Shown: piece by piece, positions 1 to 61,264 of the stretch
Position numbering within the stretch: the stretch's first letter is position 1
Layout of the letters: each line of letters begins with the position of its first letter
Source: an uncultured virus (IMG/VR IMGVR_UViG_3300032030_000052)
Taxonomy: Duplodnaviria > Heunggongvirae > Uroviricota > Caudoviricetes
IMG/VR virus record: IMGVR_UViG_3300032030_000052
Length of the DNA: 64,000 nt
Strand: one strand, 5' to 3'
The notes under the pieces: generated by a model
Told to the model about the DNA's origin: nothing
Seen by the model: only the letters and a program-made list of their open reading frames with translations
Databases searched by the model: none
Translations under genes and position numbers: made by a program

Positions 1-3000
1 TTCCAAGTATAAGAAGAGCATTGCCAACATCATCTCCGCCAATATGTGTTATCAGACTTAGACCAGCGGCTATGATAGCCACAGCAGTTCCCATAGAAAT
101 CATGGCTGCGGACATGGCTAGCAATGTTATCGACACTTTTACGAAATCATCAACGCCATTTGCCATGTTAGCGAGAAACAGTGTAGCAAGGAACAATGAA
201 CCAATTCCGGACAGTACTAACAGGTACGTCTCTGGTTTCACTTTATTTGTTTCTAGCATTGATACCGCGGCGGATATGATAATGCTCGCACCAGCAATAG
301 ACATGATGATAGCTGACATTCCAGCACCAATCGCACTTATCGTCGCTGCGGCGGCAAGGGCTCTGCCTGCTTTTACGTCAGTAGCCAGATTTAGTATGAC
401 TGCCATGCCCCCGATCATCGCTGCAAAAAGCACTATCACCAAACCAAAAGCATCGGACGGAATGGTTGAAATGATACTAAGGGCTCCCGATATTGACAAT
501 ATCGCTAAACCGAACGCCACAAACAATGCAGACATTGCAAACATGACTGCCGGGAGTTTCATAAGGGTCTTCTGGTCGATTTTCTGAAGTTCGCCTATTA
601 TGGCGTTCATCATTATTGTTAACACACCCATCATTCCGGCGAGCGCGAGAAATGCCTCACCGTTAGCTGCGTTACTTTTCTCAATTATGCCAAGTGCAAT
701 ACTAAGCAACGCTATAGAACCCGAAAATGCAAGCAATGCTATGGCTACGGAATATATGGTTTTGGCTAATCCAAACGCGGAAGATAAGGCGCCCATAGCA
801 CCTTTTATCGTCTTCTCTGATTCGGAAATGGTTTTTGAAGTTTTGGCCATCGCTTTTATGACTATCGCAATGACAATCATTACACCGACGGCTTTATAAA
901 GTTGGTCGTCTGGAATTTGTGAAAGGATTACAAGTGACAAAGCGACAATGGCTAATGAACCCGCAATAGATGTGATTTCCAAAACATTACCGGCGGATTC
1001 GACGGCATCACCCATGTTTTCAAAGAATTCGGATATGGATTTTGGGATCTTACCAATCGAAGCTATCACGCCAGACAATGATTTGATCGAGTCCATGAAG
1101 TCCGCAATGCCGATGACTGCTCCTGTGGCGATACCCATTTTGGCAACTTCACCCCATTTGATTCCCATTATACCATCAATAACGTTGTTAATGAAATCAG
1201 TAAATGTTCTAGGTGTTTCTTCGTTTCCATCAGTTATGCCACGCATACTATCGATAACTTCTTTTATACTAGAAAGAAGCGGGCTATCTTTAAGTGTTTT
1301 TGTATCTTCTCCAGTCAAGGCATCGTAAATGGTCGTAAATAGATTCTTAATAGTAGTGAAAAGCTTACTATCTTGAACCGAGGATATAAACGTCTTTATC
1401 TTCTCGATTCCAGCCGAAATGTACGGTGAAATAAAATTAAAGACACCTTTAATCTTATCAAATACATTTTTGACAATAGTGAATATTTTAGTAAAAACAT
1501 TTTGAATTTTTGATGCAGTTTTATCACTGACGATCAGTTTGGAACTCGCATCGGCGATCAGTTTCGTTAGACTTTTTGTTTTCGAAGAAACCGACGATAT
1601 ATTTATGTTGAATACGGATGCAAAAGCGTTTATAATTGGTTTTGCGACTTTTGCTATCGCGCGTCCAATATTTTTGGCGGCTGTCCACAAATCAGAAAGT
1701 GCACCAGTTATATTGTCAAGAATCGCTTTGAATTTTGCTTTCCGGACATCTCTCGCCACTTTTCCCTGCGATTTTGCTGCGGATTTCGATGCTTTGTCTA
1801 CTTTTATAGATGCTTTCTCGAAATCCCATCCAGCTGATATAACGGAGTCGATATATGCCTGAACATTTTTAGCATGCTTAGCACCTTTATCTCCTCCGCC
1901 GAACATCTCAGTAAGAACGTCGACACGTTTCTGACCGCTTCCATACATTCCTTTTAGAATGATGTCTTTTGCTGCCTGAGCTTCCTCAGCGCTAACTAGA
2001 AGCGTTTGCGTGGCATCGTTTATTGTGTCAGCCGCTTCTTCAGCAGACTCGCCATAGATTTCTTTAATAAGGTCAAAGAACTCTTTGATCTTGACTGTTA
2101 CAGAATCTACCTTCTCGACGATCTTATCAAACCAGCCGATATCGACTGACTTAATCATTGCTGAGAAAGCATCGATTCCGGACTGCCACATTTCAGAAAA
2201 ATGGTCTCCAAAAGTGACAGTACGACCTTCCATACCCTTGAGCATCTGGTCATAAGCCGTAGCACTCATGGTTATTCCGTCGTATTGCTTGCGTATTTCA
2301 TCAAGAGTACGTGGAACTTTAATGGATTTCAGCTTATTTTTGAACTCATCAATGCGTTCTGTGAGCGAAATAAAAAGAGTATTTGTTTTGTTAATGATTG
2401 GAGATGCAAAGATCTCACCAACTCTGGAAAGAGCTGCTTTCATGTTTCCGAGAGCACCCGTAAAGGTCTTATTAGCCTCTTTTGCGTGTGCACCGAAAGC
2501 ATCATCCATAGCAAAGGCAAAAGTCTGGAAATCGATCTTGCCTCTTGAGACCATGTCGCGAACTTCTTCTTCCGTGGTGTTAAGAACTTCAGCGAGTTTT
2601 GCCGCAGCATTCATGCCTCTGGAAGAAAGCTGAAGCAACTGATCGCCCATGAGACGACCATTACCGGCAACCGTAGTGAAGATTCGAGCAATATCCTCAT
2701 ATGAGGAGTTTGTCATCGCCGCGACACCAGAAATGGCTCGCAGTGATTTATGCATTGCCGTCAGATCTTGACCATTAACGGTATCAAGTGTCTTCTTGAA
2801 GTCGACTCCAGAAGCAGCCAGCTGAGAAGCCGCGGATGCCGCTGCGTCAAGACCATAAGCGGTGTCCTTAACACCGTAACTGACCGCCTTCTCGACTTCT
2901 TCCCACGCGAATCCGAGACCCTCAATCTGGAACTTGGCGTTCGCGATATTCATGGCTCTGGACCAACCACCAGACTTGATCTGACCGATGGTTGCTGCTT

Positions 3001-3292
3001 CGAGTTGCTTCACAGAACCGACGATGCCGTTTGTTATCTGTCCAATGACATTCATTCCGACAACGCCGAGAGTCGAGAATCGCCGTTCGATATTCACGAT
3101 TGCTCGTTCCATAGCAGCGAAGTTGACGTTATCGATGGAGCGCTGGATGTTATTACCGCCTTCAGTCGCGCCCTTGAGCTTGAGCTTCTCGTTGAGCTTA
3201 TCGAGCGTCGTCATCGTCTTTGCAGCATTTGACTCAAATTTGCTGTTGTCAAATCCCATTCTTACGATGCGATCGTCATAGCTTTTACTCAT
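1..3292 (-). CDS. tape measure protein (runs off left edge)
   Basis: Read manually from ATG at 3292 (MSKSYDDRIVRMGFDNSKFESNAAKTMTTLDKL...). Ala/Ile-rich, directly after tail genes. Absent from the ORF track, consistent with no stop inside the window. Confidence 0.9.
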   Translation of the reverse strand, partial: MSKSYDDRIVRMGFDNSKFESNAAKTMTTLDKLNEKLKLKGATEGGNNIQRSIDNVNFAAMERAIVNIERRFSTLGVVGMNVIGQITNGIVGSVKQLEAATIGQIKSGGWSRAMNIANAKFQIEGLGFAWEEVEKAVSYGVKDTAYGLDAAASAASQLAASGVDFKKTLDTVNGQDLTAMHKSLRAISGVAAMTNSSYEDIARIFTTVAGNGRLMGDQLLQLSSRGMNAAAKLAEVLNTTEEEVRDMVSRGKIDFQTFAFAMDDAFGAHAKEANKTFTGALGNMKAALSRVGEIFASPIINKTNTLFISLTERIDEFKNKLKSIKVPRTLDEIRKQYDGITMSATAYDQMLKGMEGRTVTFGDHFSEMWQSGIDAFSAMIKSVDIGWFDKIVEKVDSVTVKIKEFFDLIKEIYGESAEEAADTINDATQTLLVSAEEAQAAKDIILKGMYGSGQKRVDVLTEMFGGGDKGAKHAKNVQAYIDSVISAGWDFEKASIKVDKASKSAAKSQGKVARDVRKAKFKAILDNITGALSDLWTAAKNIGRAIAKVAKPIINAFASVFNINISSVSSKTKSLTKLIADASSKLIVSDKTASKIQNVFTKIFTIVKNVFDKIKGVFNFISPYISAGIEKIKTFISSVQDSKLFTTIKNLFTTIYDALTGEDTKTLKDSPLLSSIKEVIDSMRGITDGNEETPRTFTDFINNVIDGIMGIKWGEVAKMGIATGAVIGIADFMDSIKSLSGVIASIGKIPKSISEFFENMGDAVESAGNVLEITSIAGSLAIVALSLVILSQIPDDQLYKAVGVMIVIAIVIKAMAKTSKTISESEKTIKGAMGALSSAFGLAKTIYSVAIALLAFSGSIALLSIALGIIEKSNAANGEAFLALAGMMGVLTIMMNAIIGELQKIDQKTLMKLPAVMFAMSALFVAFGLAILSISGALSIISTIPSDAFGLVIVLFAAMIGGMAVILNLATDVKAGRALAAAATISAIGAGMSAIIMSIAGASIIISAAVSMLETNKVKPETYLLVLSGIGSLFLATLFLANMANGVDDFVKVSITLLAMSAAMISMGTAVAIIAAGLSLITHIGGDDVGNALLILG

Positions 3293-17187: not shown

Positions 17188-17250
17188 AATCGTGTCCTCC
17201 TTAAAGTCAACAATTCGTAAAAAGATAGAGAAGGTGTATCCTTCTCTTGT

Positions 17251-17317
17251 AGACTGACAGGGAATCGAACCCTGATACTTGCTGGTTACCCAGTCGTTCC
17301 TTCAACTCTAGTCTCTC
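17251..17317 (-). ncRNA. tRNA-like RNA A (degenerate)
   Basis: Perfect T arm CAGGG-TTCGATT-CCCTG, CTGG-GTAA-CCAG arm, AGACT/AGTCT closing stem; promoter motif 17318-17342 and terminator 17219-17247. Confidence 0.6.
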
Positions 17318-17342
17318 CATTATATTCCTTGTAGATTTCGCG

Positions 17343-30334: not shown

Positions 30335-31180
30335 TCAACTCTCCTTCACATGACCCCAGTTTTCCGAGATAGCAAGCTCAATGTCGCGGATCTGGTTGCT
30401 TGCGAGACCGCCATTATTCTTCTTGATCCATTGGAGAACCTCTTCATATCCGAGCTCTCTCTTAACCGTAATAATTTCCGAATACGGCAAATCCTCTACC
30501 CACTTGCAGAGATCTCTCCACTCGTCCTGCTTATGGTTGTGCCGCCACTCATACATGGCTGCGAGGGTTTCGTAGTTGAGCTTCAGCGTACGTTTCTGGT
30601 TGTAGCTCGATGGTAAGAGCTGGATAAGTTGCCACCAGCAATATTTCTTTCTCGCCTCATCTGTTGCTTTGAGATATTCGTCTCTCCAGTAGTTAAGGAC
30701 ATGTATGGTGTTCTCAAGAATCTCGATTGACGAGTAGCCGAAATCATAATAATCATCAGCGACCTCAACTTCGAAGCATGATTCTTTATCATCAAGATGC
30801 TCATGGCTGAAGTCGTCGATAGTGAACTCCTTAGCCGTGATCCTATGCATTGTTGAGCAGGAATTCATCTCGATGTCATAAGGATTAGGACTGACAACCG
30901 TACGATAAGTGTCAAGTTCCTTCCACCAATACAACGGAGCCGTAATGTCCACGTATACATCGATATACCGACGATACTTAGCATGGACAGGACCACCCTT
31001 AGCAAGCGCCATCATAAGCTTATGGTCGTTCGGTCCGATAACGAATCCGGTTTCCGGCTGATACTTGCTTCCGGACAGCGCGTAATGCGAGTCTGACTTA
31101 TCCCAGCTGTCCTTGGGGTTTCTCATCCCTCTGATGGCGGCTTCCCATCCAGTCACTTTTGTATTTTCGATTTTAATCAT
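30335..31180 (-). CDS. ThyX-like phage protein
   Basis: AIRGMRNP..SW.KSDS, H.KYRR, APLYWWKE.DTY, SCSTMH, R.NHK..EW. Confidence 0.65.
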   Translation of the reverse strand: MIKIENTKVTGWEAAIRGMRNPKDSWDKSDSHYALSGSKYQPETGFVIGPNDHKLMMALAKGGPVHAKYRRYIDVYVDITAPLYWWKELDTYRTVVSPNPYDIEMNSCSTMHRITAKEFTIDDFSHEHLDDKESCFEVEVADDYYDFGYSSIEILENTIHVLNYWRDEYLKATDEARKKYCWWQLIQLLPSSYNQKRTLKLNYETLAAMYEWRHNHKQDEWRDLCKWVEDLPYSEIITVKRELGYEEVLQWIKKNNGGLASNQIRDIELAISENWGHVKES

Positions 31181-42007: not shown

Positions 42008-42188
42008 TCTTCTTTTCCTCCCGATTACCGACGATGCCCATCTGACCCTCACCATAATCGACGAGGTCACAGACATCACCATAGGTGTAATCTGCGGTTT
42101 CAGAGTCTTTCTGAGCAGTGACAACCTCCATGTCACCATTCGTGAGCAGGAATGTCATAAGGTCATTGACAAGCTTACTCAGTTTCAT
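41994..42188 (-). CDS. hypothetical protein
   Basis: Coupled ORF. Confidence 0.55.
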   Translation of the reverse strand: MKLSKLVNDLMTFLLTNGDMEVVTAQKDSETADYTYGDVCDLVDYGEGQMGIVGNREEKKNGEP

Positions 42189-42445
42189 TTGATTTCACCT
42201 CCTTCATCCTCGAATACTTCCCAGTCGTCGGCAAAGATGTCATGTGTGGTGATGTGATGAACGATAAAGGTCCTCCAACGAACCTTTTCGCCCGCTTTAG
42301 ATGCTCTGATATGCTTGAGAAGACAGGGAAACTCATGGTCATAATCCTCGTCGATACCGATACTGAAGCAGATAGTTCCACGGTATTTCGGTCTCGTGAT
42401 TTTCATACCGGCTCTCAGCTGAGCCATGACTTCTTCAAAGGTCAT
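42185..42445 (-). CDS. DUF2829-like small protein
   Basis: MTFEE...G.K..R...DIFADDWEV. Confidence 0.6.
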   Translation of the reverse strand: MTFEEVMAQLRAGMKITRPKYRGTICFSIGIDEDYDHEFPCLLKHIRASKAGEKVRWRTFIVHHITTHDIFADDWEVFEDEGGEIK

Positions 42446-43101
42446 ACCGATTCCTCCTTCGTGGATTCAGAACAGTATCCATCAATAAACTCGTGGATTT
42501 CTTCAAGACACTTTTTGCCGAGGTTTCTGAATGACATGAGTGTCTTATCGTCAGTAGAAAGAAGATCATCTATGGTCTCGATCCCGTTTCGCTTCAAAGC
42601 AGCATATGTTCGAATCGAGAAATCACAGTTTTCAATACCGGAATCTCGAGAAAGAGGCTCCTTCTCGATAATTACTGAGTGATGACCAGCTGCGTAACCA
42701 TGGTCGTATCCAAGAGTATATGCTTCGTCACGTACTCTCTTGAAGTTTTGAAAGAAATTATATGATATACCAAGACGGATCATATTGCGGTAGGTTTCGC
42801 ATCCGCCAATATATTCGATTGCTTTACAGATATAGGCAGATACGCATGAGCGGGTGATGCCAAAGTCGACGGCGATATTATGCATACTGCTTCCGAAGCG
42901 GTAATACTCCTGAACGAAAGTACTGCCCAAGATTCTGGATTTTGTTGTACTATGACGCATCCGTGCGAATAGATACTCCAGAACTTCTTCAATGTCTTCA
43001 GGAGCGTCATCCTCGCATTCCGGCAGTTTGTCATGGGCATCGATTCGCTTATTGATCTCAGCCAAGAAGTTATACGGCCATTTAAGATCAGAATTTTTCA
43101 T
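42442..43101 (-). CDS. HTH plus RNA polymerase alpha-CTD-like domain protein
   Basis: IENCDFSIRTYAALKRNGIETIDDLL...FRNLGKKCLEEI. Confidence 0.8.
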   Translation of the reverse strand: MKNSDLKWPYNFLAEINKRIDAHDKLPECEDDAPEDIEEVLEYLFARMRHSTTKSRILGSTFVQEYYRFGSSMHNIAVDFGITRSCVSAYICKAIEYIGGCETYRNMIRLGISYNFFQNFKRVRDEAYTLGYDHGYAAGHHSVIIEKEPLSRDSGIENCDFSIRTYAALKRNGIETIDDLLSTDDKTLMSFRNLGKKCLEEIHEFIDGYCSESTKEESV

Positions 43102-60107: not shown

Positions 60108-60326
60108 TTAGGTCAATTTCTCGTCAATGAACTTCTCAAGGTCATCCTTTTGAACGTCCGCATTGACTTCCAGATGCAGATGAGCCATATCACCATCATC
60201 TACGGACACATACACGCTCCCGATATCGACATTTACGTCGTAACCGAGCTGCTTCTTGATGTACCGCATGATGTACTTGCTCACCAATCTAGTCAGCCAT
60301 TTGCTTCGGATTTTCATTTCGTCCAT
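60108..60326 (-). CDS. conserved small phage protein
   Basis: MDEMKI.S...K.LGYDV...HLHL; promoter motif 60361-60385. Confidence 0.7.
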   Translation of the reverse strand: MDEMKIRSKWLTRLVSKYIMRYIKKQLGYDVNVDIGSVYVSVDDGDMAHLHLEVNADVQKDDLEKFIDEKLT

Positions 60327-60395
60327 ACCTTTCTCCTTTCAGAATTGACGGATTTTCTTCCATTATATAGGGTGCAAAATGCGCGGAAAGAAAAA

Positions 60396-60470
60396 GAAAC
60401 AGTGTTGGAATCGAACCAACGTCCTCTATCGTTTCTGATAGTGCTCCAACCTTGCTGAGCTAACTGTCTC
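60396..60470 (-). ncRNA. tRNA-like RNA B (cloverleaf, 6-nt anticodon loop AGAAAC, no CCA)
   Basis: AGACAGT-TA-GCTC/GAGC-A-CTATC/GATAG-AGGAC-GTTGG-TTCGATT-CCAAC-ACTGTTT then T-run; promoter motif 60472-60496. Confidence 0.8.
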
Positions 60471-60518
60471 TCATAATATGATTTGTAAATTTCGCGTAAG
60501 AAAAAGAAAAGGAGCCCC

Positions 60519-60737
60519 TCAGGACTCCTCCTCACCGTTGGCAATCACGATCTTGATAGTTTTGGTTTTCTTCTTGTCTTTCTTAAACACGCCTTTAACG
60601 CCGTCGATCTTGTTGTCGATCCATTCCTTTGCTTCGGGGTGCCGATGTAATACAGCATTGGTCGCCGCCACCCCGGTAGCAATGGTAAGAATCCACATCC
60701 TCAGTTCGTGTGCTGCCTGAACATGCTTATACTTCAT
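60519..60737 (-). CDS. cassette-borne small membrane protein
   Basis: MKYKHVQAAHELRMWIL...; promoter motif 60779-60803. Confidence 0.65.
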   Translation of the reverse strand: MKYKHVQAAHELRMWILTIATGVAATNAVLHRHPEAKEWIDNKIDGVKGVFKKDKKKTKTIKIVIANGEEES

Positions 60738-60870
60738 AACAATTACCTCCAAATATAATTTTTGATCGGGATCGTTCCCATTATACAGGGTGTAAATAAT
60801 GCGCAAAAGAAAAATAATAAGCAGTGATTCATTCGATTCCATTATGTGCTTTCTGCACCCGCTTAAACCC

Positions 60871-60946
60871 AAGAAGATATGTGGGAATCGAACCCACGAC
60901 CTCAAGCGTTTCAGCTTGTGTGCTCCCATTGCACCTCTATCTTCTC
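60871..60946 (-). ncRNA. tRNA-like RNA C (cloverleaf, 6-nt anticodon loop TGAAAC, no CCA)
   Basis: AGAAGATA/TATCTTCT, GTGC/GCAC, CAAGC/GCTTG, AGGTC, GTGGG-TTCGATT-CCCAC; promoter motif 60946-60970. Confidence 0.8.
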
Positions 60947-61021
60947 ATAATAAGCGTTGCAAATTTCGCGCAAAAGAAAAAAGCCAATGCGATCGTCACC
61001 GCACAGGCTCAATTCTGTTAA

Positions 61022-61264
61022 TCAGTCTTCGTCATCATAAACGTCTTCGTAATCCTCGGTATCGGGTACGCCCGCGATTTCTGTGATACGACGCATCTCC
61101 ACTTCTGATGAATCTTCTCCATACTCAAGTGTAGGGCAGCCATAACCACATTCCTCGCAGATGAGTGAATCTTTCCACTTCTCATCCTCGAATACCATGG
61201 GGTTACCACACTCAGGACAAGGATACTTACCTGTCCTTAGCGCTTCTTTCAGTTTATCATTCAT
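61022..61264 (-). CDS. zinc-ribbon protein with acidic tail
   Basis: CPEC...CEEC. Confidence 0.7.
   Translation of the reverse strand: MNDKLKEALRTGKYPCPECGNPMVFEDEKWKDSLICEECGYGCPTLEYGEDSSEVEMRRITEIAGVPDTEDYEDVYDDED

What the first reader, a model, noticed from the sequence alone, without database searches (positions are those of the whole stretch)
60804..60970. tRNA mimic C with the same GAAAC loop, followed by a second small structure
Seen: stem sequences independent of RNA B but the same aberrant loop (TGAAAC), the same TTCGATT T loop, and no CCA. Opening one base pair gives an 8-nt loop CTGAAACG, so a Phe-derived quadruplet (frameshift-suppressor) reading is an alternative. Downstream, TAAGCGG/CTGCTTA encloses GTGC-AGAAA-GCAC. 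Two independent copies with the same defect make chance decay unlikely.
Basis: partly seen in the sequence, partly recalled or inferred. Interest (0 to 1): 0.8.

Follow-up and report, generated by a model that had tools for sequence, protein, structure and literature searches.

The report
Anticodon-less tRNA-shaped phage leader RNA
A gut phage makes, right behind its own promoters, small RNAs shaped like tRNAs whose anticodon loop is replaced by a sealed hairpin; they belong to a large undescribed family and cannot decode, so they are probably handles for the host's tRNA-trimming enzymes.

Summary
Observation confirmed. On the minus strand, 60943-60873 is a cloverleaf that scores as tRNA (Rfam 45.2 bits). 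It has a 6-nt loop UGAAAC on a 5-bp stem, a canonical T loop UUCGAUU and no CCA. A 48-nt two-hairpin domain and a U-run follow.

It starts 1-3 nt after a phage promoter motif (18 copies on this strand, 1 on the other). RNA B (60469-60396) is a 60%-identical paralogue. A degenerate third copy lies at 17319-17249.

It is not a decoder. Relatives in Faecalibacterium phage FP_oengus, IMG/VR, metagenomes and Clostridia genomes form a family. All four helices covary: 22 of 24 pairs change on both sides and 94.7% of cells pair.

The anticodon-equivalent arm is a capped hairpin of varying length. Among 47 strict members the loops are 3 nt (2), 4 nt (16), 5 nt (10), 6 nt (11), 7 nt (4) and 8 nt (4). 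NGAAAC of B and C matches GAAA tetraloops closed by A-U or G-C in relatives.

The first transcribed bases pair with a U-rich trailer. In 31 of 33 IMG/VR members no further promoter follows within 160 nt; in most an RBS and ORF follow.

Best reading: an anticodon-less tRNA-shaped leader or small RNA that serves as a handle for host tRNA-end processing. This is untested. The quadruplet-suppressor reading is rejected.

The parts
60944..60970 (-). Phage-type promoter motif CGC-N7-GCA-N7-TTATGAG that drives RNA C
   Evidence: The motif CGC-N7-RCA-N7-TWATGRR occurs 18 times on the minus strand and once on the plus strand. It is strand-biased in relatives too. No sigma-70-type site was found in 60250-61100. 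Which polymerase uses it is inferred.
60870..60946 (-). RNA C: tRNA-shaped RNA. Core is 60943-60873. The closing helix is lengthened by leader GAG (60946-44) pairing with trailer C-U-U (60873-71). The arm ends in the 6-nt loop UGAAAC (60913-60908). No CCA.
   Evidence: Rfam tRNA 45.2 bits. Model R1 88.5 bits (this is a training sequence). Cloverleaf is the minimum-energy fold.
60818..60865 (-). Second domain: stem UAAGCGG/CUGCUUA enclosing hairpin GUGC-AGAAA-GCAC (the same stem letters as RNA C's D stem) and a 21-nt stretch containing GGAAUCGAA
   Evidence: Sequence. Fold -11.6 kcal/mol. Kept with few changes in two related strains; one change is U-A to U.G in the hairpin. GGAAUCGAA is complementary to the T loop and 3' T stem; a match this long arose by chance in 13 of 2000 shuffles.
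60805..60817 (-). U-rich tract UUAUUUUUCUUUU that ends the RNA C unit
   Evidence: Sequence. The same type of tail follows family members.
60777..60803 (-). Next promoter motif, serving the 72-aa ORF 60737-60519
60470..60496 (-). Promoter motif that drives RNA B
60393..60472 (-). RNA B: paralogous tRNA-shaped RNA. Core is 60469-60396. Loop AGAAAC, 10-bp closing helix, then a U-run.
   Evidence: Rfam 43.5 bits. ARAGORN 'tRNA-??? (aa)'. Cloverleaf is the minimum-energy fold.
17249..17319 (-). RNA A: degenerate third copy behind the promoter motif at 17342-17316. GNRA hairpin CUGG-GUAA-CCAG, T arm CAGGG-UUCGAUU-CCCUG, then a hairpin terminator and the RBS of ORF 17187-16045.
   Evidence: R1 gives only 13 bits, E 1.4, so membership is tentative.

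Best explanation
RNA C is a non-decoding, tRNA-shaped RNA. It forms the first ~77 nt of a transcript that starts at a phage-specific promoter.

Shown:
- It keeps the acceptor-type helix, D arm and T arm of a tRNA.
- The anticodon arm is a capped hairpin, with GAAA inside a 6-nt loop.
- It belongs to a large family in gut Clostridia phages that carry a YonO-like single-subunit RNA polymerase.
- In this family the first transcribed bases (AGAGA...) pair with a U-rich trailer, and the capped arm varies freely.

Inferred: the host's tRNA end-processing enzymes take it for a tRNA body. RNase P would cut on the 5' side. RNase Z/BN or exonucleases would trim the 3' side, with possible CCA addition. 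That would release a stable small RNA and separate it from what follows. In RNA C what follows is the second hairpin domain. In most relatives it is an mRNA.

Whether the released RNA also acts in trans is open.
For: tRNA shape: Rfam gives 45.2 bits for C and 43.5 bits for B.

A homologue with a 6-nt loop UUGAUU sits in the early region of FP_oengus behind the same promoter motif and is not annotated there. Further copies are in G006 and G007.

Family size: a search for the promoter motif plus a T arm gave 38 IMG/VR loci, 66 metagenome loci and 8 genome loci. Together with the window, the IMG/VR and metagenome loci gave 79 unique sequences. Of these, 47 pass a strict filter.

Covariation was measured on 23 members not used to train the model. 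94.7% of cells pair. 22 of 24 pairs change on both sides. 0 of 500 shuffles reach the observed values, and slid controls pair at only 44-57%.

Loop lengths of the capped arm:
- 27 sequences: 6 nt in 11, 4 nt in 5, 5 nt in 5, 7 nt in 2, 3 nt in 1, 8 nt in 1, unparsed in 2.
- 47 strict members: 3 nt in 2, 4 nt in 16, 5 nt in 10, 6 nt in 11, 7 nt in 4, 8 nt in 4.
- Of the sixteen 4-nt loops, 5 are GNRA and 3 are UNCG.

Leader position: 31 of 33 IMG/VR members have no further promoter within 160 nt. In most of them an RBS and ORF follow the U-run.

An unconstrained model scan of 25 phage records found no anticodon-less hit away from a promoter among the 15 new hits inspected: five were promoter-proximal anticodon-less elements, and the other ten were ordinary tRNAs in form, with an anticodon loop.

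The polymerase homologue is present in 19 of 36 records, and in 14 of 18 that are at least 90% complete.

An extended leader-trailer acceptor stem is also what mascRNA needs for RNase P processing (PMC8457004, abstract). tRNA-like t-elements mark mRNA ends in plant mitochondria (PMC1920247, abstract).
Against: No processing was observed. The only RNA data are assembled contigs, which do not cover RNA B or C.

In the window, B and C are each followed by a second promoter before the next ORF. A purely cis role is therefore dispensable here.

The closing helix is 8-15 bp long, not a fixed 7 bp.

In Neglectibacter caecimuris, whose genome holds a family member, the 30 best-scoring of 47 tRNA genes all encode CCA. 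The mimics do not, so they do not follow that host's normal 3' route.

T-arm conservation in the pattern-derived set is partly imposed by the search pattern.

Several close relatives (G003, G004, G005, G008, MT835495.1) gave no cloverleaf hit with default filters.

Folding z-scores are modest.
Confidence: 0.5

Rival explanations
1. A trans-acting decoy or sponge. The excised or free tRNA body binds host factors that read the acceptor/T-arm half of tRNAs, such as defence toxins that modify or cut tRNA ends, or tRNA-processing enzymes. It thereby protects or redirects them early in infection.
For: B and C are stand-alone units, each with its own promoter, a U-run and a following promoter. Several paralogues with different stems but the same shape occur per genome: 3 in the window and 3 in G025. 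The units sit in the early region. The window also encodes a Tad2-like anti-defence domain.
Against: No partner was identified. No CCA end is encoded. A sponge would have to compete with the whole host tRNA pool. Most relatives are leaders of mRNAs rather than free genes.
Confidence: 0.2
2. A cis-acting RNA structure with no involvement of tRNA enzymes. It would act as a 5'-terminal stabiliser whose paired 5' end blocks 5'-dependent decay. Alternatively it would act as an attenuator or terminator (closing helix plus U-run) that host polymerase obeys and the phage polymerase reads through.
For: The helix begins at the first transcribed bases and is followed by a U-run in the members parsed. The T arm plus U-rich strand is flagged as terminator-like. 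The YonO paper names the flap domain, absent from minimal polymerases, as required for hairpin-dependent termination (PMC5467207, Discussion passage).
Against: This does not explain why a T loop, the D-loop GG and a four-way cloverleaf are kept by covariation. A plain hairpin would do, and other promoters of the same phages do use plain hairpins.
Confidence: 0.15
3. An amino-acid acceptor outside translation. G-1:C73 in B, C and the FP_oengus copy resembles the histidine identity set (recalled), so HisRS might charge the RNA.
For: G-1 pairs with C73 in B, C and the FP_oengus copy. This position is G-C in 15 of 23 family members.
Against: In the other 8 of 23 it is A-U, G-U or U-A. The G is part of the fixed AGAG start of all transcripts from this promoter. 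The helix runs on beyond -1. No CCA is encoded.
Confidence: 0.05
4. A decoding tRNA: a Phe-derived quadruplet (+1 frameshift) suppressor reading UUUC, or a doublet decoder.
For: The loop contains GAA-A. Opening C31-G39 gives 8 nt. In one related strain (run X3) both C31 and G39 are changed to A, which yields an 8-nt loop AUGAAACA.
Against: Loop length varies from 3 to 8 nt in the family, with many tetraloops. B lacks U33. Position 37 would be C. C has A8 instead of U8. The discriminator is C, not A. No CCA is encoded.
Confidence: 0.03
5. Decaying tRNA pseudogenes with no function.
For: The window also holds a truncated tRNA(CAU) copy at 15789-15719.
Against: Each has its own promoter. All four helices are kept by compensatory changes across dozens of phages. 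RNA C is 92-98% conserved in goat and bovine gut strains while its flanks diverge.
Confidence: 0.02

Closest known systems
t-elements of plant mitochondria (Forner et al. 2007, PMC1920247; abstract read)
   Same: tRNA-like folds without decoding function, lying in mRNA leaders or trailers. They are proposed as cut signals for RNase P and RNase Z.
   Different: Those are organellar and lie within long transcripts. Here the element is the very first part of a phage transcript, has a capped arm and is followed by a U-run. No cleavage has been shown.
mascRNA of MALAT1 (PMC8457004; abstract read)
   Same: A tRNA-like RNA excised by RNase P. An extended acceptor stem, made by a purine-rich leader pairing with a U-rich trailer, is needed for processing. 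That is the same geometry as AGAGA/UCUCU here.
   Different: mascRNA is eukaryotic and lies at the 3' end of a long RNA. The Rfam scan named no family other than tRNA here.
YrlA-type bacterial and phage Y RNAs (Chen et al. 2014, PMC4201824; abstract read)
   Same: A non-coding RNA with a tRNA-like domain, recognised by tRNA enzymes and also found in phages.
   Different: YrlA is encoded near Ro60, and its ends lie in the Ro-binding stem. Here no Ro60 gene was found among 87 window ORFs, and the RNA ends lie at the acceptor helix.
tRNA-like RNAs of murid gammaherpesvirus 68 followed by pre-miRNA hairpins, and the T4 species 1 and 2 RNAs (both recalled, not read)
   Same: Virus-encoded tRNA-shaped RNAs that do not decode. 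In the herpesvirus a downstream hairpin is freed by RNase Z, which resembles the layout of RNA C plus its second domain.
   Different: Different hosts, promoters and sequence. The comparison rests on memory only.
Canonical tRNA (Rfam RF00005)
   Same: Cloverleaf, T loop UUCGAUU, D-loop GG and a 5-nt variable region. Scores above the gathering threshold.
   Different: 6-nt loop, no U33 in B, A8 in C, no CCA, and a closing helix longer than 7 bp that starts at the transcription start.

Membership tests
Canonical decoding tRNA (RF00005) | Four-helix cloverleaf with a T loop and D-loop GG | tested here: met
   45.2 bits against a gathering score of 29. Family covariation in all four helices.
Canonical decoding tRNA (RF00005) | 7-nt anticodon loop with U33 and a purine at position 37 | tested here: not met
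   Loop is UGAAAC (6 nt) in C and AGAAAC in B. Only 4 of 47 strict family members have a 7-nt loop.
Canonical decoding tRNA (RF00005) | 3' CCA (encoded or added) and aminoacylation | not testable with these tools
   CCA is not encoded: C73 is followed by UUG in C and by UUU in B. Addition and charging need experiments.
Quadruplet (frameshift-suppressor) tRNA | 8-nt loop with U33, a four-base anticodon and a purine after it | tested here: not met
   The 5-bp stem closes a 6-nt loop. If it is opened, the base after GAAA is C. B has A where U33 should be. Strain X3 does have an 8-nt loop, AUGAAACA.
Quadruplet (frameshift-suppressor) tRNA | Loop length kept among homologues | tested here: not met
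   Loops of 3-8 nt, including UUCG and GNRA tetraloops.
tRNA-like processing signals (t-elements, mascRNA type) | tRNA-like fold without a usable anticodon inside or at the end of a longer transcript | tested here: met
   31 of 33 IMG/VR members have no further promoter within 160 nt, and in most an RBS and ORF follow. In the window, RNA A is such a leader. B and C have an extra promoter behind them.
tRNA-like processing signals (t-elements, mascRNA type) | Acceptor stem extended by leader-trailer pairing | tested here: met
   Closing helix of 8-15 bp from the first transcribed bases. Pairs at -1 to -3 covary.
tRNA-like processing signals (t-elements, mascRNA type) | Cleavage by RNase P and/or RNase Z at the element's borders | not testable with these tools
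   Only assembled RNA contigs were available, and they do not cover the element.
YrlA Y RNA | Encoded next to a Ro60 (Rsr) gene | tested here: not met
   No Ro60/TROVE hit among 87 ORFs of the window in Pfam. The window is not the whole genome.
YrlA Y RNA | RNA ends form a Ro-binding stem in place of the anticodon stem | tested here: not met
   The ends lie at the acceptor-type helix and the arm is a short capped hairpin. No Rfam hit other than tRNA.

The most novel reading that the evidence does not exclude
Phages of gut Clostridia that carry a YonO-like single-subunit RNA polymerase begin many early transcripts with an anticodon-less tRNA body. This would be a phage version of 'tRNA punctuation': it borrows the host's tRNA-maturation enzymes to shape phage RNAs. 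The released tRNA bodies, several different ones per genome, may then act in trans as decoys for host factors that grip the acceptor/T-arm half of tRNAs. Neither the RNA class nor the promoter it follows is described in Rfam or in the papers searched.
Probability: 0.35. Interest if true: 0.75.

Novelty: new variant of a known kind. Interest (0 to 1): 0.62.

Why it matters
tRNA-scanning programs either miss these genes or report them as tRNAs with impossible anticodons. That misleads claims about phage tRNA sets, codon recoding and frameshift suppression.

Recognising them as a family gives a defined, testable RNA class:
- Dozens of distinct sequences in human, ruminant and digester samples.
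- Prophage copies in Lachnospiraceae, Ruminococcus and Neglectibacter genomes.

The family is tied to a little-studied phage transcription system, with a conserved ~27-bp promoter and a YonO-like polymerase. If processing is confirmed, it would show bacterial viruses using tRNA mimicry to mature their own RNAs, as mitochondria and some animal viruses do. FP_oengus, which grows on a cultivable host, offers a direct experimental system.

Tried and rejected
Searches that found nothing or failed:
- blastn of 60340-61010 against 50,697 phage records: no match.
- First loose pattern (GAAAC plus T arm) in IMG/VR: 19 loci, mostly tmRNAs plus a few ordinary tRNAs; none related.
- Whole genome of the window: not held.
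Replaced by a single-protein search.
- RNA C-specific pattern in metagenome contigs: 0 hits.
- Earlier notes by place and by sequence: none.
- Rfam at E up to 10 over 59-64 kb: nothing credible besides tRNA.
- Sigma-70-type promoters in 60250-61100: 0.
- Pfam on 87 ORFs: no tRNA ligase, CCA enzyme, synthetase or Ro60.

RNA evidence:
- Contigs of one sheep-gut metatranscriptome (X2 and X8, same sample) cover 60250-60394, 60536-60764 and 61027-61150, but not RNA B or C. A hole proves nothing, because small structured RNAs are usually lost.
- One contig stops at 60394, 2 nt after RNA B's C73. That would fit a cut at the tRNA border.
- However, a related strain (X3) has an insertion of about 220 nt at 60391-60394. 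A break in the assembly graph explains the stop equally well, so it is not used as evidence.

Anti-T-loop switch:
- GGAAUCGAA in the second domain can pair with UUCGAUUCC of the T arm. Ensemble probability is 0.35, against 0.64 for the T stem.
- A complement of 9 nt or more arose by chance in 13 of 2000 shuffles.
- Both related strains carry G60840 to A, which shortens the complement. Left open; not adopted.

Histidine identity (G-1:C73): judged a by-product of the fixed AGAG transcript start.

Host 3' route: the Neglectibacter tRNA genes examined all encode CCA (the 30 best-scoring of 47). The idea that the mimics simply follow the host's CCA-less route is therefore not supported for that host.

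Full report
What is there.

Read on the minus strand, 60943-60873 folds as a cloverleaf:
- Acceptor AAGAUAG/AUAUCUU, with one G.A mismatch at 7:66.
- D arm GUGC-AAUGGGA-GCAC.
- A 5-bp stem CAAGC/GCUUG closing the 6-nt loop UGAAAC.
- Variable region AGGUC.
- T arm GUGGG-UUCGAUU-CCCAC.
- Discriminator C followed by UUG, so no CCA.

Rfam's tRNA model gives 45.2 bits against a gathering score of 29, with E 2.1e-06 over the window. RNA B at 60469-60396 gives 43.5 bits. ARAGORN reports B as 'tRNA-??? (aa)' and misses C. B and C share 46 of 77 aligned bases, and every stem differs.

Behind C lies a 48-nt domain. Stem UAAGCGG/CUGCUUA encloses GUGC-AGAAA-GCAC and a 21-nt stretch. A U-run follows. With ends at 60946 and 60801, the minimum-energy structure is exactly the cloverleaf plus this domain, at -38.2 kcal/mol. 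Energy z-scores are modest: -1.33 and -2.0.

Context.

The window is a phage, with essentially all genes on the minus strand:
- Terminase, portal and tape measure.
- A 1408-aa primase-polymerase.
- A 957-aa YonO-like ('RdRp-homologous') RNA polymerase.

The nearest named relatives by polymerase are a human-faecal phage, MT835495.1 (49%), and Faecalibacterium phage FP_oengus (48%). A public sheep-gut run holds the stretch completely.

A 27-nt motif, CGC-N7-RCA-N7-TWATGRR, occurs 18 times on the coding strand and once on the other. It is equally strand-biased in relatives: for example 16:1, 13:2, 11:0 and 12:0. No sigma-70-type site is found around the finding. I infer that it is the promoter of the phage's own transcription system. 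A preprint notes HTH domains at both ends of this polymerase family (10.1101/842583, passages). The promoter of YonO itself is unknown (PMC5467207, passages).

RNA C, RNA B and a degenerate third element, RNA A (17319-17249), each begin 1-3 nt after the motif. RNA A has a GUAA-capped hairpin and a canonical T arm, but scores only 13 bits with my model. Upstream of the promoters of B and C are ordinary hairpin terminators of the preceding genes. Downstream of each is a U-run and then another copy of the promoter.

Relatives.

FP_oengus has a tRNA-like gene (47.9 bits) at 2936-3005 with a 6-nt loop UUGAUU. It sits behind the same motif in the early region and is not annotated in the record.

A covariance model built from B, C, FP_oengus and G006 also found G007. 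In G007 the arm is only CAC-GAGA-GUG. Five other relatives (G003, G004, G005, G008, MT835495.1) gave no cloverleaf hit with default filters. They do carry other promoter-proximal structured RNAs.

I searched public collections for the promoter motif followed by GGTTCGATTCC 40-65 nt later:
- IMG/VR: 38 loci.
- Metagenome contigs: 66 loci, 60 unique.
- Bacterial genomes: 8 loci. Six are of this type: Lachnospiraceae, Clostridia and Ruminococcus MAGs, Neglectibacter caecimuris, and one MAG labelled Bacteroidales.

Together with the window, the IMG/VR and metagenome loci gave 79 unique sequences. Of these, 47 pass a strict automatic filter: closing helix of at least 7 bp with at most 2 mismatches, T stem at least 4 of 5, and a U-rich tail. 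Several obvious members fail it, including RNA C itself, because its tail is the second domain.

The T arm in this set is imposed by the pattern. The other helices are not.

Structure is under selection.

I used 23 IMG/VR members that took no part in model building. The result:
- 94.7% of 525 cells form a standard pair.
- 22 of 24 pairs show changes on both sides. The two invariant pairs are the G-C pairs fixed by the search pattern.
- 0 of 500 shuffles reach the observed values.
- Sliding the partners by 1-3 columns drops pairing to 44-57%.

The alignment was fitted to the model, so these numbers lean towards the structure. The margin is nevertheless large.

The loop.

The anticodon-equivalent arm is a capped hairpin of free length.
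- 27 sequences: 6 nt in 11, 4 nt in 5, 5 nt in 5, 7 nt in 2, 3 nt in 1, 8 nt in 1, unparsed in 2.
- 47 strict members: 3 nt in 2, 4 nt in 16, 5 nt in 10, 6 nt in 11, 7 nt in 4, 8 nt in 4.
- Of the sixteen 4-nt loops, 5 are GNRA and 3 are UNCG.

The 'GAAAC' shared by B and C recurs as a plain GAAA tetraloop. It is closed by A-U in G006, by G-C in L096 and L156, and also appears in L143 and L209. In B and C the flanking bases (A.C and U.C) merely fail to pair.

Close homologues differ in loop length: CUUAAAA in L089 against CUUAAAAA in L180.

One item of evidence on the other side. In a goat-gut strain (X3) both C31 and G39 of RNA C are changed to A. That gives an 8-nt loop AUGAAACA with UGAAAC unchanged. 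I weigh this as loss of a non-essential closing pair. B lacks U33, position 37 would be C, C has A8, and the discriminator is C.

Position and polymerase.

In 31 of 33 IMG/VR members no further promoter lies within 160 nt. In most, an RBS and ORF follow the U-run. The ORF is often a DUF6353 membrane protein or a small membrane or zinc-ribbon protein. The usual form is therefore a 5' leader. The window's B and C, each with an extra promoter behind them, are the less common stand-alone form.

The closing helix is 8-15 bp and starts at the first transcribed bases (AGAGA...). These pair with ...UCUCU, followed by U-rich sequence.

An unconstrained model scan of 25 phage records found matches in 24. 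Among the 15 new hits inspected, none of the anticodon-less ones lay away from a promoter: five were promoter-proximal, and the other ten were ordinary tRNAs in form with an anticodon loop, nine of them called by ARAGORN (Met, Pro, Gln). A homologue of the polymerase is present in 19 of 36 records, and in 14 of 18 that are at least 90% complete.

How it probably works.

Shown: it is a tRNA-shaped RNA, maintained by selection, that cannot decode. It is made as the first part of a phage transcript.

Inferred: the conserved parts are the acceptor-type helix stacked on the T arm, plus the D-loop/T-loop corner. By established knowledge, RNase P, RNase Z and the CCA-adding enzyme read exactly these parts without needing an anticodon arm.

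A purine-rich leader pairing with a U-rich trailer to lengthen the acceptor stem is also required for RNase P processing of mascRNA (PMC8457004, abstract). tRNA-like t-elements mark mRNA ends in plant mitochondria (PMC1920247, abstract). Bacterial and phage YrlA RNAs show that tRNA-like domains are indeed handled by tRNA enzymes (PMC4201824, abstract).

I therefore favour a processing handle that yields a stable small RNA and frees what follows. In C what follows is the second domain. In relatives it is the mRNA.

Points against this reading:
- No processing was observed.
- B and C have by-pass promoters.
- Helix length varies.
- In Neglectibacter, whose genome holds a family member, the 30 best-scoring of 47 tRNA genes all encode CCA, while the mimics do not.

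Rivals are a trans-acting decoy for acceptor/T-arm-binding host factors, a plain 5' stabiliser or attenuator, a histidine-type acceptor (G-1:C73), a decoder, and a pseudogene. They are listed with odds in the Rival explanations section.

The second structure.

Its hairpin has the same stem letters as C's D stem. Its single-stranded part holds GGAAUCGAA, the exact complement of UUCGAUUCC in the T arms of A, B and C.
- In the thermodynamic ensemble this alternative pairing has probability 0.35, against 0.64 for the T stem.
- A complement of at least 9 nt arises by chance in 13 of 2000 shuffles.
- Both related strains carry a change that shortens it, and one keeps the hairpin through U-A to U.G.

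I read the domain as the 3' module and terminator of the RNA C unit. It is possibly a degenerate duplicate. A switch function remains open.

Known or new.

Rfam names nothing but tRNA here. Five full-text searches found no paper describing such elements. Supplements of the FP_oengus genome paper were not seen.

Earlier notes of this scan describe comparable anticodon-less tRNA mimics in leaders of other, unrelated phages. They agree with my reading but are unchecked and are not independent evidence.

I rate this a new variant of a known kind (tRNA-like processing or mimic RNAs). It is well supported as a family. Its mechanism is untested.

Noticed in passing
window, minus strand: 63703, 63071, 61756, 61364, 60960, 60793, 60486, 60375, 59179, 57752, 49449, 37944, 28925, 23574, 17332, 14416 and others: A conserved ~27-nt promoter-like motif, CGC-N7-RCA-N7-TWATGRR, occurs 18 times on the coding strand and once on the other. 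It is shared with FP_oengus and IMG/VR relatives. It is probably the promoter of the YonO-like polymerase system, which is not described in the papers I read.
   Followed up: partly
window 15789-15719 and 14587-14514 (minus strand): The 5' two thirds of a tRNA(CAU) (Rfam 34.4 bits, broken T arm) and an intact tRNA-Met lie 1.1 kb apart. Each is preceded by a near-identical hairpin. ORF 15523-14765 (252 aa, no family hit) lies between them. This looks like an insertion into a tRNA gene that rebuilt a full copy.
   Followed up: no
window 23574 and 14416 (minus strand): Two near-identical promoter copies (ACATCCGCTTTTATGAGGAGAGAGGTTAGAA) are each followed by a short leader hairpin. The same subtype stands in G003, G004, G005, FP_oengus and MT835495.1. 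It may be a late-gene promoter with a leader attenuator.
   Followed up: no
window 42442-43101 and 42185-42445 (minus strand): One protein has a C-terminal domain like the alpha-CTD of bacterial RNA polymerase (Pfam E 6e-16). It is next to a Tad2-like anti-Thoeris domain protein (E 8e-07).
   Followed up: no
window 60391-60394: A goat-gut relative (run X3) carries about 220 extra bases exactly at the 3' border of RNA B. This suggests that whole promoter/RNA cassettes are inserted or lost at these borders.
   Followed up: no
G003 (L046) contig positions 30718 and 32562; G005 7972; G004 7452 and 5779; FP_oengus 2500: Other promoter-proximal structured RNAs without a full cloverleaf. Some have a T-arm-like hairpin, for example GAGGG-UCCGAGU-CCCUC in G003. 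They are closed by a 5'/3' helix plus a U-run.
   Followed up: no
L110 and L116 (IMG/VR): Two further tRNA-like genes with capped arms (loops UGUA and GACG) occur in phages that lack the promoter motif. Anticodon-less tRNA bodies therefore occur outside this lineage too.
   Followed up: no
L108 / G050 (IMG/VR): The promoter is followed by a long T-arm-bearing RNA and then a row of four tRNA-model hits within 300 nt.
   Followed up: no
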